Assembly (NCBI GenBank): GCA_000320545.1
Contig: ADNK01001818.1
Location: 1-35,200, forward strand
Length of the DNA: 35,200 nucleotides
Direction of reading: 5' to 3'
Source: Bigelowiella natans CCMP2755
Lineage: Eukaryota; Protista; Cercozoa
Below are positions 1,045 through 35,200 of this stretch, piece by piece; position 1 is the first letter of the stretch, and each line of letters opens with the position of its first letter. Both the position numbers and the translations under genes were made by a program. The notes beneath the pieces are model-generated. The model was not told the DNA's origin. It saw nothing but the letters and a program-made list of their open reading frames with translations, and searched no databases.

Positions 1045-1086
1045 AGTCACGTTGCTCCTTCCTTCCTTCCTTATTCCCTTAGACCT

Positions 1087-6060: not shown

Positions 6061-6076
6061 TGTTAGTCAAATCGTT

Positions 6077-6094: not shown

Positions 6095-6099
6095 AAGGT

Positions 6100-7321: not shown

Positions 7322-7359
<38 letters not shown>

Positions 7360-8339: not shown

Positions 8340-8385
<46 letters not shown>

Positions 8386-9651: not shown

Positions 9652-9695
<44 letters not shown>

Positions 9696-10615: not shown

Positions 10616-10731
10616 TGTCTAACTTGGTATCTGCTCTGGTGTCGCAGGGGGTATTTCCCCTTAGTTTGTACCATCAAAATTGGACATTTTATTGGGATTT
10701 CAAGACTGCGACATGCTTCTATTGTTGTCGC

Positions 10732-12053: not shown

Positions 12054-12102
<49 letters not shown>

Positions 12103-12134
12103 CCTAAACATTTCTTAACATATTTACTCAACCA

Positions 12135-12191
<57 letters not shown>

Positions 12192-12319
12192 TTGTGTGTA
12201 TACTTGTGTTATCTATGCAAAGATGGAAGCTGGTGGGCTCCAATGGAAGAAGTGAATCACTGCGGTAAATAGAATATTGACTGACAATATAAATCTACGC
12301 CTTTTATACATCATTTACA

Positions 12320-12357
<38 letters not shown>

Positions 12358-12737
12358 AACATAGAATAGCTTATACCCCATACATCCTCACTTTGGCCAA
12401 TAGACATGTTTTTACTCTCAGTATCTTTTGCTCTAACCCTCCTACTTCCTGTGTCCAGGTGCTTGGCCGGTGGCTTATTCATCCGAATTTCCAGACCCTG
12501 ATTTTGTGCCCAAAAACCCTGGTAATACCTAATACCGGCAGAGTATGTAGTAGGAACTTTTTGATAAAATACGCTATTTAGCTTACGCACTGCTGCAGTC
12601 GATTTGCTGGTCCACTACCCTTTTCTTCCCCCTTTTACTACTCTGCTGTTCTGCTTCGTGCTAAAGATTTATTGTATGCCTCCACAGAGGGAAAAACCAG
12701 CTCGTCAACCGAAACGGATGGCCTCGTTCAGATTTGA
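10732..12737 (+). CDS. L-rhamnose mutarotase (RhaM/DUF718) family protein, multi-exon; start approximate
   Basis: Spliced peptide RFAGVVKLKPEMYNQYTRLHDHTWDEVMKRMYDSNMRNFVVYY...MFHHWEYVGSDFDGDMKAISDDEVVRKWWSFCEPCQEP...WWAPMEEVNH matches the RhaM pattern (Y..xH..xW, EY.G.D, WW, W..MEEV.H). Stop TGA at 12735..12737. Confidence 0.85.
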
Positions 12738-13735
12738 AAATTTGAGATACATGGTGGATGATGAATATGCATGCAGCGAGTAGTCCACAAAAGATGTACA
12801 AAGATCACTGTGTAACATTTCTTTTGGATACCATGAGTTGCCATGTAGCTGCCTTACTGGATTATGTATCACCATTTAGCAGTTTACATCATCTTGTCTC
12901 ACATGTAGTATTGCTCTAGAGTTGCGCGTAACCTATACCACGTAAATATGTATCTGGACGGATGTTTTATTTTCCCAATATGGCTATGCTACGACAATTG
13001 ATAATGAAGCAATTCTACCACTGGTCCATACGCGATGTGTAATAGGTCCTGGAGGATAGAGTATTAAGTGCGACTGAGCTGGTATTTTGAGTTGGTCGAT
13101 CTACAAGTTGTATGCAATAGCCCACTCGCGCAACGCAACCAGCATGTCTAAATGCATCTAGGCAATGCTAGAATGTTCAAAGATGGACATTCAAGCAAGC
13201 AGAGGAACGATGAACAAGCTAGCTAGAGGACAAATGGCAGCAGAGGGAATTAGATCAACTAGTCGAGCGACACTGTGAGTGTGGATCCGATGGCGGCCTC
13301 GCAGGGCAAGTTGAGGTGCCCACATGCAGGTAGCCGCTGCCATGTTGTTTGATACAATCTGTTTTGGTTTTGCATCATAGAATGTTGCAGTGCATATGTG
13401 TTAGTCAAAGCTAGAAAGCTACGCTTGTCACCCAGCTGCATACTTATATTCATCAGCAATTTATGAGATAAATATACACGCATGCGGTCATTGAACAATC
13501 TACTTAAAACGTCTGCTAGCCCGCTGCGCTATTAGTACGCCATTCGCGCACAATGGCACATGACAATGCAATTTCGAGGCATCATTTTTCCCATAGCACT
13601 GTAATAATCTTGACACGATCACTCGTGGTCGCAAGGTAATGTAAATGCCTAGTAGATGCGCTTTATATTCGCGGATTGCTATTCTACTACAAGATCTGGC
13701 TAGAATCAGAAGCTACGCAGAAACATCTTAACAAA

Positions 13736-14287
13736 TTATTCTGCAGCTTTTGGAGAGTCTACATCGGCTTCGACAAGTAACTTGCTTAAATCTATAGCAC
13801 CTGAGAAAGCAACCAACATCGAACCAGGGTTTGTTCACAACGGAAGTACATGAGAACAATTACCTATTGCGGATCGAAGTTCTTCTCCGCCTGAACAAAA
13901 AAACAAGAGAACACGTCAAGCTACGATACAACCGATAATGGCTCAATGGATGCGTGATACCACTGCCCAAGCGTGTCCTGGCATCTTCTTGCATGTCTTG
14001 CTCTTCCTCCTCGGCCTTCATCACATGTGCCCTCATCTCGTCATCCTTCGTTCCGCTTATAATCTTTGATTATAGAGACGATAATGACGAATTTAAGCAG
14101 AAGGCCGAAACACCAAAATGCGAATAAAGATAAAATAGGTAGGATTCTCTTCTCTTGAAGAAATATTCACCACCTTTGCCCTATCAACTAGTTGCTTCAA
14201 ATCGTCCTGATATAAATAATGAAACAGCGGCTTTGATTCAGCAAGATGACATGGAAAGTAGGAGTAATGACAACGTAAACGCAATCA

Positions 14288-14337
<50 letters not shown>

Positions 14338-16742
14338 ACGGAAATATAATGAAGGTTTATCCTTGTGGGAGAGGATACTTGCTTGGCATCGACGTTAGAG
14401 TTGTTGCAATTGTTGCTATTGGCAACATGTGATTCATTTATGTCGCGATTTCTGCTACTGCTGCTCTTTAATATTTCATGCCATCTCTTTTTTGTTTGTT
14501 TCGAGGCCATATTAATATTTGGAGGAAGGGGGGAGAGTCAGAAAGATAATGTTTATTGTGATTCCCAATAATCCAATTCAACCAAAGGAAATATCAACGG
14601 AAGCAGCCGGTATAACGGACATTAGGTATAACGGACAATAATGTCAGCAGTGCGATGATTTTCTAGGAGGATGAAACTCTACAAGTACTCGATTGGATTA
14701 TCACATGGATCGACACTGAATAATGCCCAGTAATAGCTCACCTCGTTGATGACTTGATGCATGACGTCTGTTTCCTGGGAAAGTTTCTTTGCAACATCTT
14801 CCTCAAAAAGCATCTGCAAAGGAAACCATTCGAACGATGATCATCATGATTACAGACAAGCAAACTGCGCTGAAATAAGATGAGGAGGAAAGGCGTTGCT
14901 GCTACCTCTCCCTTGAACCCATCCATTACTCCAGCTAATATGTGTCCATCTCCTATCGAAAATACGTCCCTTTCGTGTGGACTCGTTTCCCTGTATAAAC
15001 AACAAATATGATATATGATAATGACTGATGATGATGATGATAGCAATAGTCATCATAATGATGATAAACGAACTCCACCTTGAGACTGAAGAGCCGATAC
15101 TCGACGCAACGCGATTTCTAGTACCGTTGGCACTTATGTGCCTTTGGTGGCTGGCAGGTGAAGACCGTTTGGAAGAGGTGGACGATGGCTGCGGTATCAC
15201 TAACTGTTCGGGCCTCTTTTTTTTAATTGTCGTAGCCGACGTAGGACTAATAAGCTGTTCGACAGCAGCAGTGCTGTCAGCAGTAGTAGCCTTCAATTCA
15301 TCCGGTGGGAGGGGGGGGGGAGGAGGGGGGGGCAATCCCATAGGAGAATTTGGCTCGATACTCCTTTTAAGGCTACTATTTTCAGGATGTACAGGAACGA
15401 CTCTCTCGGGGGGCGGAGGCGAAGCGAGGGAGCTTCTATTGCTACTAATACGTTGGGCGGGGGATATAGGGCGGTCGTTGAGAGGACGCTGTATAGAGAT
15501 ACGGGGTGCTGGTGAAATTCTGCCCCCCCTACTTCGCCGTTTTTTAGGGCTCACGATCGGCGTCTTGTTTTTTAGCTCAACGGTGTATACTACGTCCTCC
15601 TAGATCAGGATTTCAAGTTTAAATTTTCAGGGGCTTTGCTTACGAAATGAAACGATCCGAATCTAGCTTAATTATCAAAAGACTTCTACAGCTACTACTT
15701 ACAAAGATCACTTAGCAAGAAGCTGCAACAAGTACAGCATGGACACTTAGTATAACTCACCTGGAGGACGAGCTGAAACGAAAGTGTATATAACGGTGCT
15801 ACAGCTCGGATAAACCTATGAAGATCAATCAACAAGGATAAGATAACAAATTGTTTCAAAACGAATAATCCCACCCAGGGTTTCAACAAAGATAGTTGTG
15901 TATGACCATTTCAGAGCCTCTAGGTCGTTGAATATAGATTCCTTCTCTTCATACCACACTTCTATTAATTTTTGCTGCAGAAAAGAAGTAGGGAAATTGT
16001 TATGTATGGTGTGAGATTGTTATTATCCTTAAACATCCCAGCCCTTCTAAATCTATCCGAACGCGTACTACCTGCGTTGCGATAAGCTTCATGGTGATGT
16101 AGAAGCGATTTGCATTGAGTAGGTGCCGTAGCCAGGCACGCCCCCTTTAGGATTGAACGAAAACAATTTCAGAATATAACATCATTTTCTCTTGTCTGTC
16201 TCATTTATACCTTGCACTATTATCATCACCTTCGAAGTAAAGACTACCCACAAATTTAATGTCCGACTGTAAAGAAGAAGGAACAATTTACATGCGGTCA
16301 GCCAAAACATCGTGGATTTCTAAGTAGAAACGAATTTCCTACCACATAGAAGTAATATTCGCGAGCAGTGACAGCCACAGCTTGAGCAAAAGGCCAGTAG
16401 TTTCCCTTCCTTGCATGTTTCCCCTGTGCCATATTCGGTCAAGTGAGTTTTGAATCATTTTGTTCACATTTTTCACATCGGAACCTTAAGGCCATAAAGA
16501 AAGACGCATTCGAGGTATTTCAGAAGCTCCATACACTAAAATAATATCAATCACAGATGATGTATTGTTAGTTATTGTTTATAATTTTTATTACGAGCAC
16601 TCACCTGCATCCTTTTTTTACTGTCTTTCTCCTTCTGGTTTGAGCGACTTGTCACTTGCCTCACAGTTTTCTGCAACGAAGTCAGCAGCTGATTGGTGTA
16701 AGTATTTGGATGATGAGGCTTCTTTAGCGTGACGGAGCTCAT
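13736..16742 (-). CDS. RUN-domain protein with Pro/Ser-rich middle and coiled-coil-like C-terminus, multi-exon
   Basis: Exons encode GRAWLRHLLN (~16115..16145), LIEVWYEEKESIF and APLYTLSFQL, which are the C-terminal blocks of the RUN domain. Large low-complexity exon at ~15080..15600. Last exon ...DSPKAAE* (13736). Confidence 0.75.
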
Positions 16743-17331
16743 GGTGCTAAAAAGCACCCTCGGAGGGGTTTAGAGACAAAGGCGAGGTTTGCTTATGAAG
16801 ACGGGTATGCCTCCATTCTGACCCAATTCAGTCATTCAAAACCAAAGTCATACTTAACGTTATGAGGAAATAAGGTCAATTTCTTTATGCGACAATGATA
16901 TGTTTGACAACTAGAACCTTTTGGTGTCTCGATCTTGAACTTGTACATCATGCGACAGAGAATGCTTAATTCTCTTGAATAAACCGGTCAATCAATACCG
17001 GTGTATGAGGTAATTTACCGACAATACTCTGTTCAGAATGCTCGTACTGCCTGCATCAATCACGTGTTGAAATCACAATACAGCCAGTCGGAGGCGTGCC
17101 TTCACTGAAAAATAGTTGCACCAGGAGAATCTGCACAGCTAGAAGTTGTTGTAGATGTTGTAGAGGGAACGGTAAATCTACTCCGAGCTTTTTCGATTCC
17201 CCGTGCCGAAATCCACTGGAAATGGATCATGTAAACGCCGGATATTTCGTGTATACGACATCATGAACGACTGACAAATTCCCAAGAATAATCTGGAGGC
17301 CTGCGCTTCCGATGGCTTCTGGTACAGTGAT

Positions 17332-19257
17332 ATGCACGTACGTGTCCGCCAGCTAGGTCTGGTATGCGTGCGCGTCGTGGCCCTGGCCTCAGCTTATCTA
17401 TTGGTTCAAAAGCTTGTTACAACTCAGCGAAGATTTAGATATGAACAGGAAGAATATCTTCCAGAGGTCATATCATTCGGTACTGCTAGCACAGGAATGC
17501 TCCGAGCAATGACCAATCTTCAGTCATCACCGAGATTGAGCAAAAGACGGAGGGACGAAACACCAAATCGTAGGCTGAAGCGGAGGGGAAATGATGTGGA
17601 TAGTTCAGAAGTATCGAGCTCTCCTCTGCCCCCCCCACCACCTCCCGCCCCTCCAGATCCACCACCAGTTATTCCTCCAGATATCATCGGGCTTAAGATA
17701 AAGTGCCCCTTTGATTTGCCTCCAACGAGCCCCTTTGACGTTAATTCGAACATGACTTCAATACTTTGGCACGATAGTCCATTGATTAGAGACATCGTTC
17801 CGTATTCCACGGACACCGAGGAGAAGGTCAGAGAATTAAAATGCTATTCTTCTTTGTGAACAACATTTTGACGAATTCTATGCAGGAATTATTCCGTGAG
17901 AGCGAGGAAATGAGCAATGATCACTCTGACATGAATAGCAGTAGTCTATGTGACTCTGATAGTCGCAGCATCTCGGAACTACTTGCTGCTAATCCGCGTC
18001 CCAAAAGAAGTCATTTCGAGACCCAGGTATATAACGTGGATTAAGAATTGTTGCATATCTCAGTTTTATCAAACTTTCGTATCATGCTTTCCTTTCTAAA
18101 GTATGAACATATCCGGGTATTGAGAGGTAATATATTCGTAGACGCCGAATAGCTCCGATATTGATTGCACGGAATACTCATATGATGGTTGCATCGAGCC
18201 AAAGGTAGGTCTCCGCACATTTGTTACCATTTAACTTTGCTACCCAATTTTAGCTATAATTTTAAACAATACATGGTATTATTATCATCTCTGATTGATG
18301 GTGGGTATCTTTATGAACTATTAGGCACAAGAGTTGCCTTTGTGGGCCCCGGTTTCCTTACACTTCGTTTAAAATATGTCAGTAGAGACCGTCTTTGATT
18401 TTATGGTGTGTGTTTTTTTCCTAAGGTTCTTTCTGAGTTCCGCGCGAATCCAAAAGCACTTAAGTATCTAAAAACATACGGTACCCTAAGCTCGTGTCTA
18501 ATAGAGCGGCATACATGAACTACCTTCATTTCCAGAAACTACGACCTTGAATGAGGACCCGGTGGCCACTGAGATGATGGTTCACGACCCAATTCTTCCC
18601 CTCCTTTATACTGACTCCGGTAAGCGTGATTTTTCCTTATTCTACATTATCATGCAATGTCAATTTTCCAATCATTTTTGTGTGACATACAGGATGGGGC
18701 GTCTTATCAGCAGCTGCTTTGCTGAAAGGGAGAACTGCAGAAAAATCACCTCATACAAGATTTGCAGTTCAAGAAAGTGCTGTCATGGCACGCCCGCCTC
18801 CTCGTGGCGATATTGCAATAAACACGCTTCTCACTTCAAATGCTTCTTCGTTGGACGATGCGAAAGAAAATGATGAAACCTCGAAGAACATATCCTTCCT
18901 CAAGGCATGGTCAGAGTTGTATCCTGGTTCGGTTCCATCGATGGAAACTACTTCGGGTTCATTTGCCCCACTGCCTTTCTCACATTTTGCCCTTCCGCTC
19001 AAATCAATGGGTCAGATAATTACGTGATTATTTAAGGCACTTGAAAACACTGTGATACATTCTAATCACGAGCAGATTGTTCATACATAAATAATCTACT
19101 GTCCTGGCGTATGAATATGTACTCGTCCACACTCCCACATCATCTGAACATCCCTTTTCCAGGTGGGATATGCATGGATCCAAACTCCAACTTTCTGATG
19201 CTTGTGGACCCAATACAACGACAGGTTTTTTTATTTATTTATGTGGGGACTTATTCT

Positions 19258-19298
<41 letters not shown>

Positions 19299-21535
19299 CA
19301 TTAGTCTTTTTCTCTGAACCGCTTTCATTTTTTATCAAAGGTATTTCGCATCAGCCCAACTGGGAGAGTGAGCACGATTGGAGGAGGGTTGCGAACGGCA
19401 GAGAGAGCTTCCGGCTTGGAAATGGATTTGTCTGACATCCTCGTTCCGATCTCATCCCCGATGATGCGGAAAGATGATTATGGTACGGAGATGTCTGCTG
19501 CCGTGAGCCCTTCTTCCTCTGTCAAAAAGGAGGGAGGACCCCGCGATGGCTTAGGGCGACAGGCTCAATTCCTTACACCCAGCGGAATTACGGTCTGATC
19601 ATTGTCATTAGCGTAAATATCAAGCAACAATTCTTGTGACCGCTTCTTCTTCTTCTTCATCTTCTTCTTCTTCTTCTTCTTCTCTTATCAGGTGGACGCC
19701 AACGGGGCAAGCTACGTATGTGACACTGGCGCTCGAACGATCCGTAAAATTTCCCTTGATTTACAGAATCCTCAGAAACGACTCTATGACGTAACAACTC
19801 TGGCTGGAAGTTATACTAGTAGTTTTGATGGCACGCGGCCGGTGATGATGATGATGATGATGAGCACCAAAACGGACGCGTTGATAGTGGATGGTGTCGG
19901 TAGTAATGCGCGGTTTCATTCCCCCACGGGCATTGCGTTCTCAGCCTTTGATCATAGTTTATATATTACGGAGTCCTTGATCGGGAGAATCCGTCGTGTA
20001 AGTTTGCCAGATGGTAATGTCACCACGTTAGGGGTGCGACTGCATTGTTCCTCCCCCACTCCTTCTCTACTGCGCACAACGGGAATCACAGTGTCCCCTA
20101 TAGACGGAACCATCTTCGTTTGTTCCGGCACGTGCGTTCACCATGTACATCCGAATGGAACCTTGATCCAAACCTTCGGGAAAAAGTATGATAAATATCC
20201 TTCTCAAAGTATCATCTCATCGCCATCATCTCGCTGGTGGAGAAGCCACTCTCCTTTGAGAGAGAAGAAGGGCGAGAAGGAGAAAACGAGGAAATCTACG
20301 AGAGCTGCAAATGCGGATTATATTGAACATGTTTTACCTCCTATGCCCGATCTCCAATGGACAACGAGAGACCAATTTGTAGAGAGTGATAATGCAATGT
20401 CATCGCTCTGTTTTCTTGATGGACATGCATCAGAAGCACGATTTGTGCAGGTGGCAGACGTTGCCGTCGGAAGGAGAGGGGAGCTATATGTCACTGAATT
20501 TGCACAAAATGTAATCCGGGTACTGGATCGCCGTCGTCCTATCTTCAATGGCTACAAACAGGGACCTTTGGAGGTATTGCGACTCTTTCTTTGCAAGAGG
20601 GTACCGCTGGTTTCTTTTCTTGCTAATCATCCCCCTCATGCCTATCCACCATCAATTAAGTAATAATGGCTTGATAATATCGCAGTTTTCAGTTTGGGCA
20701 GGAAACGGTGAAAAGGGCTGGAGAGATGGAATGATATCGAGCGCACATTTCAATGCTCCGCAGGGCATTACCACAGATAGGTATCGGCCACGCCAAACAC
20801 ATATGTCTTATCGCGCATACCCATCAATACGTTTCGAGATTATATTATTATGTCAGGGAAGGCAACCTATATATCGCCGAGATCGGAACGCTGAAGATCC
20901 GTAAAATAGCCCAGGTTGATAAGAACAACGATGTAATCACCATGGTCCTGGGAGAGTTGTAAATATGAAGATGCTGATTATGATCATACTGCTCTCCGGA
21001 GTGTTGTCCTGACAATTGAATTATAAGCTGGGGCTTTTGTGTAAGGTGTCCGAATCGGATCGTGTGAACGACATGTTATTTCCCGACAAGTACGAGCTAC
21101 ATGGACGGGTGAAAAAGGTGAGGGTATCACATCATATATTTTGTCTCGATAGTGAAAAAGGCCAAAATGCAATTCTTCTTCATTATGTATTCGTTAAGTG
21201 GCGGACCGAAGATGAGTTGAGTAGGAAGCTGCTCAGAAAAGTATCTAGAGACCTTCGGAGGTAAATTCAATTTCAACATCGTCGATTTTTGTAGAAATTA
21301 CATGAGTTGTCTCCTTGTGGTAAGGTCACGCCATGACGTTTTTGGGACATTGAACATTGAGGCGAAGAAACCAAAATTAGAGGAGCTACTTTTAAAATTA
21401 AAAAGAAAAAGTAGAAGAACGACTCGAGGTACTACTAAGACAGACAGGGATATAAGTACAGACATGAGTAGCGTCGGTGGCCAGGATCAGAAAGTTCGTT
21501 CCTGTGTTAGTGATGAAGTGAGCAGCATAGCCTGA
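17332..21535 (+). CDS. NHL-repeat (beta-propeller) protein with N-terminal hydrophobic segment and polyproline tract, multi-exon; 3' end approximate
   Basis: Repeated NHL motifs: DGLGRQAQFLTPSGIT-VDANGASYVCDTGARTIRKI; DGVGSNARFHSPTGIAF; DGHASEARFVQVADVAVGRRGELYVTE; AGNGEKGWRDG...AHFNAPQGIT-EGNLYIAEIGTLKIRKI (~19540..20910). Confidence 0.8.
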
Positions 21536-21677
21536 TTTACAGGTTGTGAAATCATGGCGATGGTGAGTAGCAATGATGAACGAAATAAAGAAACTTCATA
21601 TTGTAAATCATGTGCAACGCACATGGTGAGACGATCGCAACACTGGTTCGCCATACTCATTGTCGTATTGCGTGACA

Positions 21678-21720
<43 letters not shown>

Positions 21721-22662
21721 ATGCATGCATATTAATGTGTGTGTGTGTGTATGCTTGCGTGTGTGTGTGTGTGCGTGTACATGCACACTATCCGTCGCAG
21801 CTTGCTTGTGTTGTGGCTACGATGCTTTGCAGCAATGTGGTCAATAACGTGCACATGAAGCACACAACAAAAAAGACACAAATAGGTTCAACATAAGAGC
21901 TGTAGCCGCTGCTTTGCACAGCTACATTAGACCGAGGGCATGCTTATCATGCTTATCATGCTTATAACGTGTGTGTGTGTGTGTTGCGACTCGATCTCAT
22001 TATCATCATCATTTATTTGGCAAATCATCTGGGTGATATAATAGAATAAATATAATTTATTCATTTAGTCATCCGTCTCACATAATGCCATGCCGACTGC
22101 TGGCCATAACGTACATAGCTAGCTAGCTATGCTAATAGCAGCCAGCGCATGCATGTACATGAAACGCTTCATTAAATGTTAGCTACGTAGCAAACGGGTG
22201 TGCTTATCTAGTTATGCGCAGCGTGTTTATCTCAAAACTGCTACTTCATGTAGCAGCTAAGCCGTCCGGCGTGTCGGCTAAGCTCCTCACGCACCATAAT
22301 CGCTGTTCATACACGCGCCAAAGTAGCAACGCACATCAAGTAGGACGGGGCGCCAATTTGCTAGCTTAGTGCTGCTGGCTACGCTAAGGAGAGAACATGT
22401 AACAGCTAGACCATGGCCCCAGTATGTCTTATGTACGCTACGACAATATAGCGTGTAAACAGGACATTAGCACCTATTTGTTTACAACACAGATTTTTGT
22501 GTTGATCTTCACTTGCGGCGTGCACATGGAGAAAGGTAATGACCTTATCAGAAGAAAATATTCGAAGGAAGCCGGAAAAAACTACAGAATGTAACTAGTA
22601 CACGGTGAACTAGCACGAGAATATTCGTGAGCGGTCAACGACATAGATCACGCGTCCGTTCG

Positions 22663-23199
22663 TTATTCCGCTTTCTTTGACCTCGATCTCGATCTTTTCT
22701 TTTTAACAGGAGAAGCATTCTGTTTTCAATCACCAAAAATCAAAAAATTGTGTGAATCAAGAAATAGTGTAGACTTTAATAAAAACCTCTTCTTTCTTGT
22801 CTGTGTCATCAGGATTAGGCCCTGTAAAATTAGTTCTGAGCGTCGCATACTTTACAATATGATAAAATCTTACCGTAAAGTATACCGACGAAATAGTTCA
22901 CAGAGAATAATAGTCCTAAGCTGTAATAATAAGGAAAATTTAGTTCGCGTAGTATAAAAACGTGAGTTCTCATAACCTTAGGAATAAGAGGATGTAGACA
23001 TGGATGTTGCCACTTCCCGTAGCAATTGCCAGAAATATTGAAGCAATCAAAGCAGCTATGACATAATTAAGTACTCGGATTGTGCCCTGGTTGACACCCC
23101 TTTCGAATATGCTATTCACCACCTGCAGTACAATAAAATTTTGTGTTAGGTTCTTGAAGGAGCGGGAACATAAAATGGTACGTCCTCCGCCAGCGTCAT
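22663..23199 (-). CDS. PKR1-like ER membrane protein (V-ATPase assembly factor family), about 5 exons; absent from the ORF track
   Basis: Spliced peptide MTLAED-VVNSIFERGVNQGTIRVLNYVIAALIASIFLAIATGSGNIHVYILLFLS-LGLLFSVNYFVGILY...RSRSKKAE*. Shows an SIF..G motif, two TM helices separated by NIH, and a C-terminal KKxx ER-retrieval signal. Confidence 0.7.
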
Positions 23200-23343
23200 G
23201 GCCCTTGTACTGCCGAGGTATGAATGATATAGTTCATTTTAGTACGACATACTAGTGGATATGTCGAGGGTGAAAAATGCAGGTATATTTCCATATATTT
23301 AGTTTTACCTAAATTGGTCACGAGCGCCCAATACCTGTAGTAC

Positions 23344-23378
23344 ATCTAGATCTAGATCTAGATCTAGATCTAGATCTA
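23344..23378. repeat. Self-complementary (ATCTAG)n tandem repeat, ~6 units
   Basis: ATCTAG x5 plus ATCTA, in the divergent intergenic region between the PKR1-like and PH/EDR2-like genes. Confidence 0.9.
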
Positions 23379-23723
23379 TCTGGGAGTTTTGTATGCTGTA
23401 TGGGTTACTTTTTGATTATCGAGACAACGAAACACACTTATTCATAAGTAGATTTACGTGGCGTTTATGCATTCCTCACGAAATCCTGCGATTACTTACA
23501 CAAATTCAGGTGATTTGCACTATGTGACATAATGTTCTGGAGATATTTCTTGGAATTGGGCATTGCACAGTTCACCACTGAACCTTGGCAAGCATTTCCG
23601 CGATCTGTTCGTGGGGAGGCAGGGGTAGACAAGGTTAACCTTAACTAGACGAAAATTAGAAGCGGAAAGATAGATAGTAGGTGATTAACAGCAGAATAAT
23701 TTAGAATAATTGAGGTGACGAGG

Positions 23724-26700
23724 ATGAAGAGTGGGGAAGATGTTCTGGGGTCTATGGCACCACACTACCCTTTGGAAGTGGCATCAATGGCGCATGACGT
23801 GTTTTCCACACGCTTTTTTTTGTTATTTTAGTATCTAAATTGGTTGGAGGCCTACGAATAGATTCTTGGTATTCAAATGGTAGACAATGGAGAAGATTCT
23901 CCGCCTCTCTCTCCGGAGATGGTATGCAATCAAATCGACAGTTAAGGAAGTCCCAACTAACCTCTTCCCTCCTCGCAGCTGTCCGTAAACCCCCCACTTT
24001 CTGGTATTCGGATAAAAGGATTTCTATGGAAAAAGCACAGGAAGAATAAGCTTTGGAAAGGCTGGCACAAGCGATACTTCGCTTTGACAAATGAGAAGTT
24101 GGTCTACTTCAAGAATGAGCGCGAAGTGAGTACAGGACTGATGCGCGCATTCTTTCATACCGATTGATACATACGGTACTAAAATTGTGTAAAATCATTA
24201 GATGTGTGGCAAGGCAAAAGCTAGAGGTGAGATAAATTTAGGCGCGGACTGCACAATTGTGGCCTCGCCTGAGGGTAACGGGAAACTAATTACGAAGGTC
24301 GTTATCTTTTTTAAGTCGAGGCCAACGTGCCTAGTATATGGGTATCATCAACACAAATTTAATCATATATCAAACAGTTTATGTTACTTGTACCACCTGG
24401 AGGAATGATCCACCTTGGAGGGACTTCCAAGGAAGATGCAGATGAGTGGATAGCAAGAATCCGCGACGTGATAAAAGAGCAGAAACACGAAGGGAGTATC
24501 AGGAAGGCGGACGAGTCATCATCTTCCGACGAAGAAGAAGATGCCAACGATGACAACATCATAACTGAAGACGATGGATTAAATTCCAACAATTCCTTCG
24601 GTTTGTGTCCAAATCTGACTAATTACTAAAAAGTGATTTGAGATAAATATCATTTCTTCTTAGCCCGCCAAGATTCCGATATCGCATCAGGATTAGCGTA
24701 AGTTCTAAATATGTTTTTACTACTTCAATATGTAAAGATGCTACGTGCTCAGGTCTCCTGTAGGGAAGAGAGAGAGGGTCCAGGGAACAGTGACTGGGGC
24801 AGCGAAGCATGGTGTATTGCTCAAGCGTAAGACTGGCCTATTCCATGGATGGCATCAACGTTATTTCATCTTGGTTAGATAGAGCACTATTTCATCATAA
24901 AAAGAAGACTTCATTTAGAATGAATCTGAGGATCCAACTAATACTCTGACTTCATTTTTGCGTATTCAGCGAGGAAACTCTTTGAGTTACTATCGTATGG
25001 ACCTGAAAAATAACCAAAATACCTTGAGCGCGAAATGTTTCAGGTCGGAAAATAAATTGAGGATGACAACTGGAAATCAAGTGTTTCTAATGTGATGCTG
25101 TGTTTTCTTTGACATAGGAACAGTATATATTTGACCCGAGAGTTTCACGTTGGTTACGATAAATCACGAGAATCGGTGAAGTGAAGCAACTACCATCGAA
25201 TTGAACACACAACTACATTGATAGAGGTTTTCCCAACTTGATTAAGTTGTTTGCTCACCCCATCCAGGAGAAGAAAAAGAGGGAACATATTCCTTTTTCA
25301 GTGGTTGGACCCAGGGTTTCCTTGAACCTCTCGGCGAAAACGCAAGAGGAGGCACAATCATGGGTCGAGGAGATTCAGAAGAGCATAGATGCTGCGCCCT
25401 CCGTATCTGACAAGGGTCTGTCATTGATGACGAATCCATTTTTTTGTTATGATAGTAGCATGTTAACCAGTTTTCAATCACCCACTTTCAGGATTTCGAA
25501 AAGTAAGTGATACCAGCGACGGATTTTCACCTGATGGCAAGTCGGTGCGCTCTTTAAGACCTTCCCGGGCCGCTCGTGTGTCAGGGTCGCCAGTACCATC
25601 GTCTCCTTCAAAGGTGCTATACAACCAGTGAGCGAATAGGCAGTCTAAAAATGATGATATCTGTACTAATTATCCTTTTGACAAAATTAAGGGCCTCCAC
25701 TCTCGAACAAACACTGTGCCTTCTCTGGGCACCATCCGGATGCACTCCACGCCAATTAAACAAGAAGGCACAAGTCCTGTCTCACAAGCTAGTAGCAGCA
25801 GTCCGCACCTTAGGTAATAATAATACAATCTGCAATCCAGAGCGACAACAAATTGTTTGTTTTTGTCCTGTTCAACATCAAACCCATCCTTTCTTTCTGT
25901 GTTCATTGACATTTGGTTGGCCGATTTTCGAAATTAATCTTTTTGCTATTTGGGGAATCTTAATGATGTGACAAATACGCTACTACCCGCTAAAGAGAGA
26001 ATCTAGCGATAGTCATCTATCCCAAGTCTATTATTTTTTAATTTAGAAATTCTAATGCATCTGTTCAGACACCCACGCACATACAAACATTCACACACAC
26101 ACACACACCCAAAGTCAAAAGCAAGCAACAAATACTTGTAATGCTTCTCTTCTATAGTTGCAATACATTTTTTTATCCTGTGAGATAACGTGTATACCAA
26201 AGTCTCTTTTTTCCCCAAGGATAGAATGTTGTCTGATGTGTCATTTTCTCTTTTCAGAATAAATCTGGAGAATGAGATGTGGAACTCAGCAGTCCTACTG
26301 GAAGGATGGCTCTGGAAACGTTATGTTCGGAAAAAGTATTGGATGGGCTGGCACTTAAGGTGGTGGTGGTGGTGGTGAGGTAGTGTTGCAAAGAGAGACA
26401 CGCCAAGAATTCGGAGAATGATGGAAGTTAAAATGGGACGATATACTTGATTATTGAACAGGTATTTCATGCTGAGCGGCAACACTCTGCAGTACTTCAA
26501 GGACGGTCGCAAGAAGAGAGTTATTGGTTCGGTTGTATTAGGTATGGTTTTTAGTGGTGCCCTGATTTGTACTATCTCTCAATGTCAGAAGACAACAGCA
26601 ACTTTGAGATAATATGGTTACTGACTTATTAACTATTTCCTACTGTTTAGGAAGCGATTGTTGTATAGATTTCCCCGGTGAGTAATACACAAAAATGAAC

Positions 26701-28669
26701 TAACGCCTAATCATCATTCTCCAGCACCTTTGTTAACACAATCAAATTTGCAAACATGCAGGTTCCACAATAGTGGTGAAGAAGAATAAAGTTCTTTACC
26801 CATTTACTGTGTTTCTTGATGGGCCACCTCATGAGCAAGTCTCCACCAGAAAGTCAGTTAGTCATCACTTATTTACGTGAATATTTCTGTGCGTACGTGC
26901 ATGCGCCATGTCAATTTTACTCACATTTGTTATCTTTCGACCATTTCAGTGCTCTTCTACTCGCGACGCCAAAGCAGGAGGTGGATGATGATCACCAACG
27001 ATGAATATCAAGATCTCTTTTTGCGAAGAAAATACTGATTCTCTGTTACCACTTTTTAATATAGGATGCAAAGCGCTGGACTGAGTCATTGCGTCGTTCT
27101 GTATATGGTCCCCAATCGAGTGAGAACACCACCAAGTTTCAGCTGCAGGATAGGTGTGTAGAGTAACCATCCCTTTCAATATGTATTATGAGTTCATAAT
27201 CATGATAATATGTTCATAATCATGATAATATGTTTGTGTTTTTCACCGAAAACCGTAGTGACGATGAAGGTGAGGAAGAGGAAGAGAAGGATACGGCAGT
27301 GAGATACGGGTAAAACTGTATTTACTATTTAACTTCATCACACGCATACTAGAGGTTCTCACGGTCCTTGGAGGCAATCTCTTGTCGTGTGTGTTTGATC
27401 TTGATCTTATTGTCTTGTCATTACTGTTGTACCAGGGATAAGATAAGACTTTCTACTCGTACTGCATACGATTCGAAGGCATCTCCAGGGTCTAATATTA
27501 CTGTTTCCACTACTATCCATTCACATCCATATCACGTCATCCCTTCTCCTCTTCCTCCTCCTCCTCCTCCGCTTCTCCAATACCAGAGATAGAGAGAGGG
27601 AGGGTGTGCGAGAGAGAATTTATCAAAGCTAGCAAATTCGTCATTTTTGCTTTCCTGCCAGTAACTCTCGAATTATTATCTTTTCCCAGCGTGGTTCAAA
27701 TCTTCAACAAGCTGGATAGAAGCTACTTCGTAGTTCCCCCTGTATATCACGACCGCCATCATCATCATCATCATTATCACCATCATCATTATCATCAATA
27801 ATCAACCTCAACCATCAGTAAGCCCTCCTATAAAATCACTCATAACACCAACCACCACCATCATCATTTGTAGGTTGGGCCTGCTATAGCGCCAGAGCTC
27901 TATGCAGATGCGACATTCACAGTTTTAAACCCTTGTTGGCCTCGTAACCTCTCATCCACTGACAAGAAGGACCTTAAGGAACTTAGTGGTTTTGGCGAGG
28001 AATTAAGGTGGGAGCCGACTGAACGTGAACGACGTCGTCAATGATGAAAGAAAGGAGAGACTTAAAATTACTTAAATGTTAATTTAGTGACTTTCTTCTC
28101 ATAATCTTTCTCCTCCTACTACCACTCTTGTTTTCTCTACTACTTCCCTGATGTCTCGATCAAGGTATGGCGTCAAAGTGTTGTTGGCTGACACCAAAGG
28201 GCGGGTGTGGTACCAGGTGCTGCTGCTGCTGCTGCTGCTTCTCACAGATTTTCAAAAAGCTCCTTCTCGCACCCCCCTCCCCCCACCTTCTCTTTATCTC
28301 TGTTGTGTGCGTGCGTGCGTGTGTGCGTGTGTACTCTACCACGTGCCAAAAAAATCTTCATATCTCTGTATCATTATTGTTACCAGTGTCTTGTTTTCGC
28401 CATCATGAACTACTTTAATTTAACAAATGTTACTACTACTCCATACATGCATTAGTTCTCTTTCACTCATTCTGTGATATTATTTTGGTCATTCCTAAAT
28501 CGATTCGAAGGATGGTTATTACGCGTTCGGCAAAGCGCGCAGCGACATACGCGAGACTAAGGAAACACGGCTGATATTTCACCGCATGTCGGCTGGCTCT
28601 CGGGAAGGGGACATTGTATATTATGGACAAAATAATCTACTCATCGAGGTAGGAGGAGGTCTACCGACT

Positions 28670-28704
<35 letters not shown>

Positions 28705-29814
28705 CATAGTAGTCATAGTAACTATGGAAGTGAATTTGTGCTACCAGCAACCAACTGGCACATTTTCCCAAAGGAGGGTACGGGGTGGGGGGGATGCCGA
28801 TAATAATGTTTTCATTTCTAGTAAATGATAATCGTTCTAATCAGTTGACATATTGTCAGGCAACTACTTTGAAGTCGAAGCGATTAAAGCCCGTGCGAAA
28901 CTACAAGAAGGGATCTTCACGATTAGTAGGCGGCTATATCAACTGCAATGGGATGGGAAAGCCAATTCACTTCACCATTCTTAGGTCATCATCATCATCA
29001 TCATCATCATCACTGTTGTTGTTGTTGCTCCCGACATTGGTTACAAATGAATCCGAACATCACCGACTATCATCAATTGAAACAGGGATGCAGAAAGTTG
29101 TGCTGTAAATAATAGTAATAAGCAGTCGGGCGAAGACATCTGTAAGATGGAGGTGCGTTAAAGTATATTATGGCGAGCAAATTTTTGTTTGAATAAATGA
29201 GTAACTACTGTGTATCAGCAGCAGTGTGACACATAATACTACGCCAAGAAAGAGTGATAGTTACATGGCTATTATTTATCCACTCTCTGTTTTTTGTTCA
29301 TTCGTTTCCGCTGCTGCTGCTGCTGCTGAATCTTCCATTAATGGTGATGCTGGTTGTAGGTTTCTGTGATAAATTCTGTGACAAGAGAGACCGAGAATTC
29401 GCCCATCCAACTCACTCCTGGATCACCAGAAAACTTAGGTTTACTGTGCGGAGGTAATAATGATAATAATGATAATAATAATAATAAATGCAATAATCAG
29501 GGGAGAGGACGGCTCAAGTGTGTGTGTGTGTGCGTGTGTGTGTGTTTGTGTGACACAAGAGAGGGGGGGAGGGGGGGGGTGGCGGGAGTGAAAGGGGTTA
29601 TGGGGAGTTTGCTACTGCATATTCTTGAAACAGCAACATCATCATCTTTTTGTTGTTGTTCTTGTTGCGAGTAGGTATTCACTTCGTGTCGATTTACATC
29701 TCGGGGCTATCACCCGAAGGAAAGAATGTGGAGGCAATAGAAATCCCGGTGCCTGAGATCCCAGATGCCAGCAAGAAGTCTTTAGCCTCTAGAAAAGTTG
29801 TAGAATTAAAGAGG

Positions 29815-29851
<37 letters not shown>

Positions 29852-29877
29852 CCCCAAATTAGTAGTATTAGTAGTAT

Positions 29878-29912
<35 letters not shown>

Positions 29913-30168
29913 AGTAGTAGTAGCTGAGGGGGCTGATCAACCCCATTTTTTATCTAATGCACGATATGTCGCTAAATATCTTTTTCCTTCCGCACCATCT
30001 CTCAAATAATACTGTTTTTTGTCTTATTCTCGTCGGTCGTCTAGTTTGCATCCTTTATGCCATTCTGGGAGGATCTTCGTCAGTTGCGAATGGGAATGTA
30101 AACATTGGTGGAAATCGCAGCAAACACCAGGCGATATGCTTAGGGTTATCAAATCTGCTTCCAGGTGG

Positions 30169-30200
<32 letters not shown>

Positions 30201-30495
30201 CTTGTTGTAGGAAGAATCACGGCAATCGTGATGATGATGATGATATTCATGCACTTTTTAACGATTGAATTATTCAATTTGACTGCTATCTTTGAATTTT
30301 GTTCCTATGTTTTTTTGTTGGTCTGACTTATCATATATTCGTTTTTTCGCCGTCATACAGTTTTGATACGGAGTGGATACTACTGGCTCTTTTCGGGATG
30401 TACTCTTTCTTTCAAACGATTATAACGAATGAAGATGGAATCTTCGTTGTTAGCGTTGCAATGATGATTCTCACTTTGGTGAGTAGAGGCAGAGG

Positions 30496-30537
<42 letters not shown>

Positions 30538-32748
30538 AGCTTATAAATAGTGATTTTGTTAAATAAAGACGACAGCATTAACAGTAGCGGAGCACGGGTT
30601 GTTGTTTTGATCCATCGGTGTTGAAGAGAAATGTTGAAACTATCATCATCATCGTATAAGCGAAGAAAGAGCAATCATCATATTCCCCATCACCATTTAT
30701 ATCAGGTTCCCATTCTTCAATTTTTGAGAGGAGCACTGACAAATGAATCAAATTCCGTGGCGAAAGGCACTGTGAGGAGCAGACATACTGGTCCTTGTTA
30801 ATACTTCGACTCTACTACTACTACCATCACCATCTACTGTTTCGTATTCAGATATTATTCTAGTAGATTACAAGGGACAAATTCCATATTAATGCTGCCT
30901 AGAGTTTAGGGTTGGGGGCAGCAAATGATGCCTAGTGAATATAAAAACTGCAGGAGAGTAGAGCCACATTTTACTCCTACATTATCACATCTTGATGTTC
31001 ACTTCGATTCCCACAACCGATGATGACGGTGGTGATGATGATGATGATGTAGGAATATTGTCCCGGGGATTCTGGAAGTTATCCGCCACCCTAGTGAAGA
31101 AGGACAACGGGTAAAACCAAGCATCGAAACTTATGATGATGATGATGGATATGCATCGAAATCTCGATGATTAAACTCCTGGCGTCGACGGTTTTGTGAA
31201 AGTTTTAATTAAACATGCAGATCAAAATTGTATTCCCCTCAATTCCATCTCCATTGTTCCTAACTTCACATCATCATTATTATCGTACCGTTATCATCAT
31301 CGGTTTTTGAATGAAGCAGCAGCTGATTGAGCTTCAGAAGTATATCATCGATGATACTGTGTTCGTGGCCATTTTGTGTTGTCGTCGTCGTCGTCGTTGC
31401 CACTGCTGTCAGTTCATCGTCAAGTGTGGGAAGCGGAATTGCGGATGCGAAGCACCAGAATAACGAGGAAGAAAAGCGAGGAGTCCTGAAGGAATGTGGA
31501 GAAAATCCATCAGAGAGCAATTATAGCTACAACAACAATAGTAGTAACAACACGTACAGCGTCGATGCTGAGCCACGTGCAGCAGCAGCAGCAATGGAAG
31601 GTTCTACTACTACTGCTGAGGATCCCCCCCAACATCAAACTCCGCAAAGGACGATTAAGGGTAATCGTAGTTGTTGTTGCAGTAGCTGTTATACTTATTA
31701 TTGGGTGTTGTCGTCACTTATCGTCAGTCAATAAATCTACCCGAGATTTTTCATTTATTTACACGATTTAGCTGCAGAAGAGTTGTGAGAGGATGGCATC
31801 ATTATTTCGCAAGTACGATCGATCTCTATTGGTAGGCATTGAATATTTCTTCTTCCTCCTCCTCCTCTGCCTCCTCCTCTGCCTCCCTCCCTCGTTCCTC
31901 CTCTTCGCTGTTTCCTTCTTCTTCCTCTTCTTCTTATGTCTAGGACATGTCGCTGCTGGATCAACTCTGCCCTACTGCCCGCCTTCTGAAGAGAAGATGA
32001 AGCCTTGCTCGTGGACCAACTCGCACTTTCATAATTTTAAGGTGTGTGGCAACATTAGGAATAATGGTATGTGATAATAATGAGGAGAGAGAACAGTGGT
32101 ACTGCTGCTAGTAGTAGTCAAGGGATAGTGGGTACCTACTGCTACTGCTGCTGCGGCCGGTGAAAATAATGATAATGATAATAATGATGATGATGATGAT
32201 GATGATTGCACTTCGAAAGTAGTGCCAATACAATGTACATGCGAGGTAGCAGTCGTAGCGTATATAGTTCTTTCTTCATAATAGTGTTCAGGATGTAGTA
32301 AATGAGGGTAACATATTGCTGCTGCTTAGGTGCGGGCAGGTCCAAATTACAGGAAGCTTAAGATAAAGAAACCCTCGAAGAGGGAGCTCTTCTCTTTACT
32401 GAGTGTGGACACTATTCGAACTAACAGCAAGATAGTAGAATTCACACCGTATCTCAAATTTAAACCAGAAAAGGTCAGTTTGTTTGGAGGGGACAAAAGC
32501 AGATGATGACAGTATGCTGCTCTTAGAACAACATTGTATTGTCATTCATTCAACAAACCACCACTACTACTTGCTGCTGCTATAGTGCTACTGCTGAGAT
32601 ACTGCTGAGCAAGTAACGATGGTCATGTTCCATTGTCTGCGACAGCAAGAAATATAGTGTTCTGAGAAGAGAGATTATGTACTCCAAATTTTGATGATGA
32701 TGCTGATTCGTGTATTCCCCCTCCTCCTCCTTCTACTATATGTGTTGC

Positions 32749-32781
<33 letters not shown>

Positions 32782-33475
32782 ATGTGTGTTGTATTATTCG
32801 CTTCTTAAGGTGGACAAGCTCATAGATCTCCAAGCTCGATTGAAAGAGAAGAGACCTGACTTGCGAATTCCCCCAGTGTTCTCTGTAAATCTAACTTGGC
32901 CTACCTCCGCACCTCCCAATCCTCTGTGGGGTAAACCTATTAAGGACGGCCCTGGAATAGTCTTCACTCTCGTTTTCTATGCGAAGGATTGGTGGGTAGA
33001 CAGCTCCAAGGTAGTGCTAACGAATCAATTAATCGATCATTCATTCAGTAGCAGATTCAAAAAGGAACACACAACATTTTAGTGTTACATATCATATGTT
33101 GTAAATTGCATTTGTGAACGTCTTTATTCGCATTGTGTATTGCTACCTACCACCTCCAAATATTTCTTTAATCGTCCCTTAGGAAGATGTCCCGGCGCTC
33201 AAGTTGGTGTCCACGTGGATCAATTCGGATCTAAACTCAAAGTATATCGACATCTATACACATATTACAACGATTTTTTAATTATTGATTTCTATGAAAG
33301 AGAGTCTCAGCAGGATAAGTATTTTAGAACTGCATCAATGCAGCAATACCCCGACGTTTGTTGATGTTCTTTACTGTCACATAGGTACCGTGAGCGTTTT
33401 AAAGTGTTGCCGTTTTTTGTTAACCTCAAGGAATGCAAAATAGAAGGTATTGGACATATATATACTTCTACGGTG

Positions 33476-33555
<80 letters not shown>

Positions 33556-34107
33556 TTTTGTGCATTTCATCATATGTACATTTACATGATCACACTAAAT
33601 ACACGCACAAAAGCAAGAGCAGTAAGAACTAAAGATGAAGAGAAAAGGAGTGAACATAAGACTCCTCCGAAAATATTTAGGCATGGTTAGGACTATAGTG
33701 ACGCGATTCAACGGGAAACCGTTCCTATCACGGCCGGAGCACGAGTTCAAGAACGGCGTTCTTACACAGATCAACAGCAAGGGCCAATCTGTGGAGATCG
33801 AGTACCACAATATCACTGTTGACGGGTACTGCTCGAATATCAATGCTGAATATTATTTCAAATCCTTCGTCGATCAAATAAGATCTCGATTAAACGTGAT
33901 CCACATTAAGCTATTCTTCACTCACTATCTATTTTTATCTCTAAATCCCTTCACAGTTACCGCTTCCCTTACCTGGCCCGCTCGACCTGCTACTCTCTAC
34001 TGGATAACTCATCGACTTACATAATAGACATGGGGTATGTATGTGTATTTGTATGCGATATATGTGCGATGTACACGTATCCAACGACATATCATCATGC
34101 AGAACAC

Positions 34108-34148
<41 letters not shown>

Positions 34149-34375
34149 TGTATCCAACGGTTTATTGAGCGATGTGCTACATCATAGCAATTTCTTACAT
34201 GTTATCAGACACTCACCCTTTTTTGTCATCAACCAGTTTCTGCATTGAGGCCAGGGAGGATGAAGAGATGCCAGAACAGACCATCGGCCACGTTCGTTTT
34301 AATTATCTCGACCATAGACTTTTCCCAATGTGGACGCCGGATGTACCAAGTGTTTCCAGTGGTTCAACACTTTGA
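23724..34375 (+). CDS. Large multi-exon protein: three PH domains, uncharacterised middle region with TM helices, C-terminal EDR2-C/DUF1336 domain; start approximate
   Basis: PH1: KGFLWKK...GWHKRYFAL...EDADEWIARI (~24015..24470). PH2: HGVLLKRK...GWHQRYFIL...EEAQSWVEEI (~24805..25390). PH3: EGWLWKR...GWHLRYFMLSGNTLQYFK...DAKRWTESL (~26300..27095). Hydrophobic exon at 30361..30478. DUF1336-like: FKVRAGPNY, FSVNLTWP, RERFKVLP, NGKPFL, FCIEAREDEEMPEQTIG (~32000..34375). That this is one gene is inferred from splice-site continuity. Confidence 0.72.
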
Positions 34376-34465
34376 CATGAATCAATGATGACAGTTAACT
34401 GTTATGTGTTTGCAATGAAAACAATTTGTCGATGCGTAAAAAATGCGTTGCACAGCGTGAAACTA

Positions 34466-35200
34466 CAAAACTGGATTGCGTGCAGCATGCACATCAAATC
34501 GTTGCCATTTTTGTTTCTTGATGAGAATTGGTTTCAACGGGTCAACATGCACTGAAGTTGTGCGGTTACACACCTTGATTGTTCCTACTGCATTGATTTG
34601 CTACGGGCGCGACTTGCGAACACTGATTGAACGATGCAATGCGGTGGGCTGCATGGAACACTCTGTCAGCAGCCTGTGCCTTCTAGCCTTGTCAACTGCG
34701 TTGCAGGAAGCCGGGACAGGGACATGTTCAGAGTCGATGATGACGATGATCCCACAACTGTCATGTGTTGCTCGATTGTTGGAATTTGGCAATTGAGCAT
34801 TGTCGTTCAACAATCAATCATCACAATGCCATGCCATTTTCACCCACATGGCCAACAGTGTGCAAATCGCACTTGGCAAATTGATCACGCATGTGCATGT
34901 GTCCCGCCATGCGAGTCTCTGCGGCTTGTTCGATTCTTCACTTCACGATTTGTGTGTGCACACGCACACACGTGCGTGTGCATGAGAGTTGTTTGTGTGA
35001 ACAATGACAAGTGTGCAATCGATGATCGTCCACCAAAGACAAGACACACTGTGACTTGTCACCACTCAGCAAAGTGTTTTCTCGCTGGTGCATGCACGCA
35101 CACGCTGGATGCGTCTGCAGCTCTGTCACTAGTTTGTCACAAGCCAGTCGCTTGGCACCACTGCCCATTTGTTCATTCAAGTTTCAAAACATCAATCCGC
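34466..35200. repeat. Degenerate TpA-depleted repeat (inverted relative of the copies flanking the LTR element)
   Basis: Only 5 TA in ~735 bp and none in 34686..35129. The reverse strand of ~35030..35152 aligns by eye to 607..660 and 6547..6636. Confidence 0.65.

What the first reader, a model, noticed from the sequence alone, without database searches (positions are those of the whole stretch)
34466..35200. Second independent TpA-depleted tract, with a gradient and an apparent fossil (TA)n microsatellite
Seen: TA frequency falls off right after the DUF1336 gene stop. There are 5 TA in 34466..35200 and none in 34686..35129. At ~34951..34984, TGTGTGTGCACACGCACACACGTGCGTGTGCATG is a strictly alternating pyrimidine-purine run built only from TG, CA and CG steps. 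That is what a TA-containing microsatellite, common in the introns here, would become after A->G on either strand. Inference: this replicates the signal at 549..6915 and suggests the process fades at gene boundaries.
Basis: partly seen in the sequence, partly recalled or inferred. Interest (0 to 1): 0.7.

Follow-up and report, generated by a model that had tools for sequence, protein, structure and literature searches.

The report
TA-erased gene spacer attracting retrotransposon
In this marine alga the DNA just past a gene's end has lost almost every T-A step, likely rewritten by the alga's recently reported virus-mutating process, and a jumping gene has landed in this stretch and in a similar one nearby, so such scarred spacers may be its preferred landing sites.

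Summary
The tract is real: 5 TA in 735 bases, about 48 expected. The window is Bigelowiella natans, where TpA-to-TpG/CpA hypermutation of integrated viruses is already published, so the process is known.

New here: (1) the tract is single-copy, mostly untranscribed DNA 3' of a gene, and resembles an ordinary host spacer with its TA erased, not viral or element DNA; (2) one of four DNA runs carries another insertion of that same element inside it (4-bp duplication, 35102..35105); (3) other copies of this element clade in the genome are TA-erased (19 of 23 residue changes; three models without tyrosine); (4) the integrase ends in a predicted methyltransferase-like domain lacking the Dam motif.

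The tract's own ancestral sequence was not found. The fossil (TA)n microsatellite is unproven. Two insertions cannot separate 'targets TA-erased DNA' from 'targets tail-to-tail spacers'. The scan noted similar TA deserts in a diatom before (unchecked).

The parts
34466..35200 (.). Tract 2: TpA-depleted, CpA/TpG-rich single-copy DNA 3' of the DUF1336 gene; runs off the window end
   Evidence: contig depth equal to background in DNA runs
34686..35129 (.). TA-free core; no RNA reads in the bin 34746..35200
34376..34685 (+). Shoulder with reduced TA; holds the 3' UTR (RNA contig X17 stops at 34501)
34951..34984 (.). Alternating pyrimidine-purine run (8 TG, 6 CA, 3 CG); origin from (TA)n unproven
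35102..35105 (+). Target site duplicated in run X14 around an insertion whose two ends match the two ends of the window's LTR; empty in the window and in X2, X9, X13
35073..35152 (-). Stretch 72% like 6547..6634 of tract 1; holds a 10-base motif found exactly three times in the window (610 +, 6621 +, 35086 -), all in TA-free DNA
23877..34375 (+). Multi-PH-domain + DUF1336 gene; one exon is 100% identical to JGI Bigna1 model P0121; full model P0122 maps exon by exon
549..710 (.). Tract 1, left part (0 TA); begins in the last codons of a + gene read by eye
6430..6915 (.). Tract 1, right part (0 TA); ends 27 bases before the stop of a NAP-family gene on -
711..6425 (-). Intact Ty3/gypsy LTR retrotransposon: LTRs 711..1035 and 6100..6425 identical but for one base in a G run; 4-bp duplication at 707..710 and 6426..6429; 1659-aa ORF 1087..6066; TA normal
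1090..1488 (-). C-terminal integrase extension after an SH3-like domain: predicted alpha/beta fold resembling the C-terminal half of SAM-dependent amino-methyltransferases; GYPG where Dam has NPP(Y/F)
12533..13735 (.). Control: tail-to-tail spacer (rhaM-family gene on +, a - gene read by eye) with normal TA (o/e 0.96)
21536..22700 (.). Control: tail-to-tail spacer (NHL-repeat gene on +, Pkr1-family gene on -) with normal TA (o/e 0.96)

Best explanation
The tract is a single-copy, TA-poor stretch 3' of a gene that was likely an ordinary host spacer rewritten by Bigelowiella's TpA-to-TpG/CpA hypermutation, and an active Ty3/gypsy element likely prefers such stretches as landing sites. Shown: the TA loss with matching CA/TG gain; single copy; lying mostly beyond the transcript; insertions of one element in both TA-poor tracts; TA-erased copies of that element clade elsewhere in the genome. 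From the literature: the mutation class itself. Inferred: a silent chromatin domain forms in some spacers behind gene ends; the host mutator (an adenosine deaminase is proposed in print, untested) erases TpA there over time and is held back by transcribed or coding DNA; the element's integrase, possibly through its methyltransferase-like tail, is drawn to the same domains; resident copies are later erased in turn. The copy at 711..6425 is too young to show this.
For: Species: exon 100% identical to a Bigna1 model. Process: all GC-biased mutations in two viral regions fell on TpA, giving TpG or CpA (10.64898/2026.01.13.699255). Tract 2 has Rho 0.10 and 1.93 against that paper's cut-offs of 0.43 and 1.52. 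Mass balance: f(TA)+f(CA+TG) is 0.248 in tract 2, 0.258 in tract 1 right, 0.237 and 0.263 in the two TA-normal spacers, and 0.19-0.22 in 4 genes and 3 divergent spacers; high GpC and low CC/GG are shared by tracts and spacers. Erasing TA in silico brings the two spacers closest to tract 2 among 12 regions (JSD 0.023, 0.024; genes 0.028-0.036; element 0.049-0.058). Direction: Bigna1 model P0127 differs from the window's element at 23 of 152 aligned residues, 19 explained by TpA changes alone, where 34 of 818 possible non-synonymous changes are of that type; 16 of 21 TpA-forced codons changed. Bigna1 models P0127, P0132 (1243 aa) and P0141 (670 aa) have 0 tyrosines against 74 in the window's 1659 aa. 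Insertion: in X14 two contigs at full depth end at 35107 and 35102 in the two LTR ends. The two tracts are 4.7% of the non-element window; two of two insertions there has p about 0.002 if uniform.
Against: No ancestral or orthologous copy of tract 2 was found. Four DNA runs (X2, X9, X13, X14) match it base for base apart from one shared 1-base deletion and the X14 insertion, so no TA was seen changing (5 sites, little power). The left part of tract 1 does not fit the mass balance (0.174). The margin over genes in the erasure test is small, and only 5 of the 10 best of 268 windows overlap the control spacer at 12533..13735. Two of four gene-end spacers are TA-normal, so a gene end is not enough. 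The gene beyond 35200 is unseen, so tail-to-tail is not shown for tract 2; the left gene of tract 1 and the right gene of the first control were read by eye, without Pfam support. The tracts share about 90 bases at 72%, which fits an old repeat. If the element simply favours gene-end spacers, two of two in TA-poor ones has p about 0.15. Only 22-23 letters of each end of the X14 insertion were seen. Fold matches are weak: no Foldseek E at or under 0.001, Z 7.0.
Confidence: 0.62

Rival explanations
1. The tract is the remnant of an old foreign or repeated element, erased by the same TpA process and decayed beyond recognition; the host spacer was never the target. This is the published model applied as it stands.
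For: About 90 bases at 72% shared between the tracts, above 1000 of 1000 shuffles, and a 10-base motif three times, only in the tracts. The paper links TpA-poor sequence to foreign domains.
Against: Single-copy depth. No tblastn hit at E 0.05 for 63 element-family proteins on five spacers, and TA-tolerant alignment of the LTR or internal region to tract 2 scored within shuffles. No Pfam hit for 15 tract-area frames or 3 more, no Rfam hit on tract 2, no tRNA. Composition fits host spacers better than the element.
Confidence: 0.25
2. The element targets gene-end spacers, or alternating purine-pyrimidine DNA in general, and its presence in the two TA-erased tracts is partly chance.
For: Both duplicated targets are alternating 4-mers inside alternating runs. 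TA-poor spacers are 38% of gene-end spacer length here, p about 0.15 for two of two.
Against: In 14.2 kb laid with three DNA runs, unbroken contigs cover 21971..23335 of the TA-normal spacer in all three.
Confidence: 0.35
3. Same footprint, different chemistry: the thymine of TpA is modified (5-hydroxymethyluracil or base J type) in silent DNA behind gene ends and miscodes as C; no adenosine deaminase is involved.
For: T-to-C and A-to-G at TpA cannot be told apart in double-stranded sequence. Modified thymine at transcription ends in kinetoplastids and dinoflagellates is recalled, not tested here; only a listing on Leishmania was seen (PMC5282726).
Against: No evidence for such a base in chlorarachniophytes in the listing; the paper names an ADAT2-like candidate.
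Confidence: 0.2
4. The tract is a functional element (terminator or boundary) selected to lack TA, with no special mutation process.
For: It lies at a gene end and shares a motif with tract 1.
Against: Two other gene-end spacers keep normal TA. It tolerates a retrotransposon insertion. Directional TA erasure is shown on element copies in this genome.
Confidence: 0.06

Closest known systems
TpA hypermutation of integrated giant-virus and virophage DNA in Bigelowiella natans (bioRxiv 10.64898/2026.01.13.699255)
   Same: Same species, same signature (TpA lost, CpA+TpG gained); the tract passes the paper's window cut-offs; the paper also finds TpA-poor models with transposon domains.
   Different: The paper's hot regions are 25-186 kb of viral origin and its clusters need three 1-kb windows. 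These tracts are about 0.65-1 kb, single-copy, with no detectable foreign origin, behind gene ends. The main text has 0 occurrences of 'retrotranspos', 'gypsy' or 'microsatellite'. Supplements not seen.
Repeat-induced point mutation (RIP) of fungi
   Same: Dinucleotide-specific transition mutation that destroys mobile DNA (as the paper compares it); leakage into neighbouring single-copy DNA is recalled.
   Different: Opposite direction: RIP is C-to-T and makes TpA. It needs duplicated DNA; this tract is single-copy.
Targeted LTR retrotransposons (chromoviruses to heterochromatin, Ty5 to silent chromatin, Ty3/Ty1 to Pol III genes)
   Same: Ty3/gypsy anatomy with an extra domain at the integrase C-terminus; insertion into low-cost DNA outside genes.
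   Different: No chromodomain hit, no tRNA gene in the window. The extra domain is methyltransferase-like; the apparent target is TA-erased spacer DNA. Ty5 is recalled; the others were seen as search listings and one passage.
DAM-LTR retrotransposons (bioRxiv 10.64898/2026.05.21.726589)
   Same: Ty3/gypsy elements with a truncated adenine-methyltransferase-like domain (five strands, flanking helices).
   Different: Those keep the Asn-Pro-Pro triplet; this clade has GYPG or GFPG, and only 1 of 39 members touches Pfam Dam (E 0.032). No chlorarachniophyte is named in that main text.

Membership tests
B. natans TpA hypermutation footprint | Host is B. natans | tested here: met
   Exon 100% identical to a Bigna1 model
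B. natans TpA hypermutation footprint | [quoted passage not shown] | tested here: met
   0.10 and 1.93 for the tract; 0.20 and 1.82 for 34201..35200
B. natans TpA hypermutation footprint | Observed TpA-to-TpG/CpA changes against an ancestral sequence at this locus | tested here: inconclusive
   No substitution in four DNA runs; no diverged ortholog covers the tract. Shown instead on element copies elsewhere
B. natans TpA hypermutation footprint | Target of viral or other foreign origin | tested here: inconclusive
   No hits; weak shared block between tracts; viral collections not searched
B. natans TpA hypermutation footprint | Caused by DNA adenosine deamination | not testable with these tools
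   Hypothesis in print
Fossil (TA)n microsatellite | Steps derivable from TA by single TpA changes, in random order, and unlike runs outside tracts | tested here: inconclusive
   14 of 17 steps derivable, 3 CG not; runs test p 0.09; similar mixed runs at 21756, 26888, 28304
Ty3/gypsy LTR retrotransposon | TG..CA LTRs, target duplication, protease-RT-RNase H-integrase order | tested here: met
Ty3/gypsy LTR retrotransposon | Recent mobility | tested here: met
   Near-identical LTRs; insertion in 1 of 4 DNA runs with 4-bp duplication
DAM-LTR | Methyltransferase-like fold in the polyprotein | tested here: inconclusive
   pLDDT 96.5; top Foldseek rows are SAM methyltransferases, best E 0.012; PCIF1 Z 7.0, rmsd 3.3, 114 aligned
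DAM-LTR | Asn-Pro-Pro catalytic triplet | tested here: not met
   GYPG or GFPG in most rows of the 39-sequence alignment
Chromovirus | Chromodomain at the integrase C-terminus | tested here: not met
   No Pfam chromodomain in the ORF or 39 relatives; the tail models as alpha/beta
RIP | C-to-T change that enriches TpA | tested here: not met
   TpA is depleted tenfold

The most novel reading that the evidence does not exclude
A host-transposon loop: B. natans marks some gene-end spacers and erases their TpA; an active gypsy clade reads that mark with a catalytically dead methyltransferase-like tail on its integrase and inserts there on purpose; the inserted copies are then erased and keep the domain marked. 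This would be a retrotransposon steered to the scars of a host hypermutation system, and a live reporter for where the unknown mutator acts.
Probability: 0.22. Interest if true: 0.85.

Novelty: new variant of a known kind. Interest (0 to 1): 0.62.

Why it matters
The TpA mutator of B. natans was reported on two viral inserts, with unknown enzyme and unknown targeting rule. If it also rewrites short host spacers between genes, it is a chromatin-guided process and not only antiviral. An element that is jumping now, lands in those tracts and is later erased there gives a direct handle: existing resequencing data can map its landing sites, and its copies form a time series of the mutation. The methyltransferase-like integrase tail is a candidate targeting module of a kind that my searches did not find described.

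Tried and rejected
No whole genome is held, so the tract's right end and the next gene were not seen. CpG methylation-deamination was rejected: CG o/e is 0.78 against 0.82 background, and it cannot remove TA. Assembly artefact was rejected: four DNA runs reproduce the tract. Coding explanation was rejected: the long frames follow from missing TAA/TAG; no Pfam hits, no RNA reads in 34746..35200 in a shallow 3'-biased lay of about 6% of X21. No Rfam or tRNA match. A metagenome scan for the LTR end found 0 matches. The NHL-protein search gave no close relative and no taxon. The ESM Atlas gave no usable hit for the integrase tail; PDB sequence and PHROGs searches gave nothing relevant. The wide VIA search on the tail alone could not be run. 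The metatranscriptome contig X19 covers only the last exon. Surviving TA sites: 4 of 5 have C before or G after, against 46% in control spacers, too few to mean anything. X14 also has a contig end at 27538 with 23 letters left over, at a (CCT)n run in an intron; probably a break in the repeat, but unresolved, and a second insertion there would weaken targeting. TA-tolerant alignments gave two marginal scores (LTR with tract 1 right 28.5 v shuffle maximum 27; second control spacer with tract 2, 33 v 32; 25 shuffles, 12 pairs), not counted as evidence.

Full report
Observation. The counts are right. There are 5 TA in 34466..35200 and none in 34686..35129. Mononucleotide shuffles give a mean of 48, with 0 of 10000 at 5 or fewer; the poorest 735-base window in 6950..34400 has 27. 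CA/TG o/e is 1.93 and CG 0.78, against 0.82 in the background. TA per base falls from 0.078 in the last intron to about 0.03 in the last exon and 3' UTR, 0.022 in 34502..34685 and 0.002 beyond. A two-step fit (34204, 34686) beats one step by 5.9 log units (breakpoints chosen for best fit).

549..6915 has TA o/e 1.01. It holds an intact Ty3/gypsy element at 711..6425: 325/326-base LTRs with no mismatch and one gap, a 4-bp duplication, and a 1659-aa ORF with protease, RT, RNase H and integrase zinc-finger hits. Only its flanks, 549..710 and 6430..6915, are TA-free: one 650-base tract split by a young insertion.

Organism and known process. A DUF1336 exon is 100% identical to a JGI Bigna1 model, so the window is Bigelowiella natans; the full model P0122 maps on + from 23877 to 34375. 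Preprint 10.64898/2026.01.13.699255 (I read parts 1-4 of 5 of the text and searched it; supplements not seen) reports a rate about 1000 times background in two viral inserts, with the changes at TpA giving TpG or CpA, 124 clusters of TpA-poor 1-kb windows, and an untested ADAT2-like candidate. Tract 2 passes its window cut-offs.

What the tract is. It is single-copy by contig depth in X2, X9 and X14 and lies in one contig in X13. An RNA contig stops at 34501 and raw RNA reads are absent from 34746..35200 (shallow). No Pfam, Rfam, tRNA or element homology was found. Genes in the window alternate in direction, giving three internal tail-to-tail spacers plus this gene end. Pfam supports the strand of the NAP, rhaM, NHL and Pkr1 genes (the NAP and NHL hits are weak); two other genes were read by eye; the gene beyond 35200 is unseen. 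Two spacers keep normal TA (o/e 0.96) and two have lost it. All share high GpC and low CC/GG, and the sum of TA, CA and TG is 0.24-0.26 in both controls, tract 2 and tract 1 right, against 0.19-0.22 elsewhere; tract 1 left is an exception at 0.174. Erasing TA in silico makes the control spacers the closest of 12 regions to tract 2, and the element the farthest but one or two; the margin over genes is small. Against a pure host origin, the tracts share about 90 bases at 72% (0 of 1000 shuffles reach the score) and a 10-base motif.

Direction of change. No ancestor of tract 2 was found: four DNA runs show no substitution in it. But a search with the element's last 194 residues returned 52 proteins. 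Among them Bigna1 model P0127 differs from the window's element at 23 of 152 aligned residues, 19 by TpA changes alone (4% of possible non-synonymous changes are of that type), and 16 of 21 TpA-forced codons are changed. Every tyrosine codon begins with TA; Bigna1 models P0127, P0132 and P0141 have 0 tyrosines in 158, 1243 and 670 residues, while P0123 and P0125 keep normal levels. This shows the erasure, with its direction, on this element clade in this genome.

A second insertion. In run X14 two contigs at depth 94-95 end at 35107 and 35102; their loose ends are the two ends of the window's LTR, giving a 4-bp duplication of 35102..35105, with the element reversed relative to 711..6425. X2, X9 and X13 span the site empty. 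I chose X14 for among the lower-share holders, before seeing any break. So two of two insertions seen lie in TA-poor tracts that make up 4.7% of the non-element window (p about 0.002 if uniform), but p is about 0.15 if the element favours gene-end spacers in general.

The integrase tail. Behind an SH3-like domain lies a conserved 130-residue domain (39-sequence alignment, 38 of the 52 hits plus the query). Models have pLDDT 97.0 and 96.5. The top Foldseek rows for the tail alone are SAM-dependent methyltransferases led by Trm11, DIMT1 and PCIF1, none at E 0.001 or better; VIA gave PCIF1 Z 7.0, rmsd 3.3, 114 aligned, a middling score. The motif reads GYPG where DAM-LTR elements keep Asn-Pro-Pro (10.64898/2026.05.21.726589; parts 1-2 of 5, section 9 and passages read; supplements not seen). 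A dead methyltransferase fold used as a reader is my inference and is untested.

The microsatellite. The run has 8 TG, 6 CA and 3 CG. It could come from (TA)n, but equally from a (TG)n/(CA)n or mixed run, which are common here; CG needs a second event, and similar mixed runs occur in TA-normal DNA. Unproven.

Novelty. Nine paper searches (listings only, apart from the two preprints) showed no report of an active B. natans gypsy element, of its landing in TpA-poor DNA, or of TpA erasure in short host spacers; the library lacks most subscription papers, and the preprint's supplementary tables may list this locus. An earlier scan note (e1-9981459) describes TA deserts in a diatom; I did not check it. 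Verdict: a real footprint of a known process, in a new setting, with a testable link to an active retrotransposon. New variant of a known kind, interest 0.62.

Noticed in passing
window 21886..21930: About 45 bases match a very high-copy repeat (summed contig depth about 2000 times background) that also appears in RNA reads; it lies in the TA-normal spacer.
   Followed up: no
window 35158: One base is missing in all four DNA runs laid; likely an error in the assembly.
   Followed up: no
window 30058: T reads G in all three DNA runs laid there.
   Followed up: no
P0154, P0160, P0163, P0164, P0165, P0151, P0175: Relatives of the element from environmental or transcriptome sources have 0-2 tyrosines, several with C or H at conserved Y columns, so TA erasure may reach other, unnamed organisms.
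   Followed up: partly
window 12533..13735 and 21536..22700: Tail-to-tail spacers have their own composition (GpC o/e about 1.55, CC/GG 0.5-0.75) whether or not TA is lost.
   Followed up: partly
window 610, 6621, 35086: A 10-base motif occurs exactly three times, all in TA-free tracts; one copy lies 16 bases from the X14 insertion site.
   Followed up: partly
window 27538: A contig of X14 ends here with 23 letters left over, at a (CCT)n run; unresolved.
   Followed up: no
window 10145..10618 (-): The NAP-family gene seems to begin with a long N-terminal exon holding a hydrophobic stretch, like an organelle-targeting leader (read by eye).
   Followed up: no
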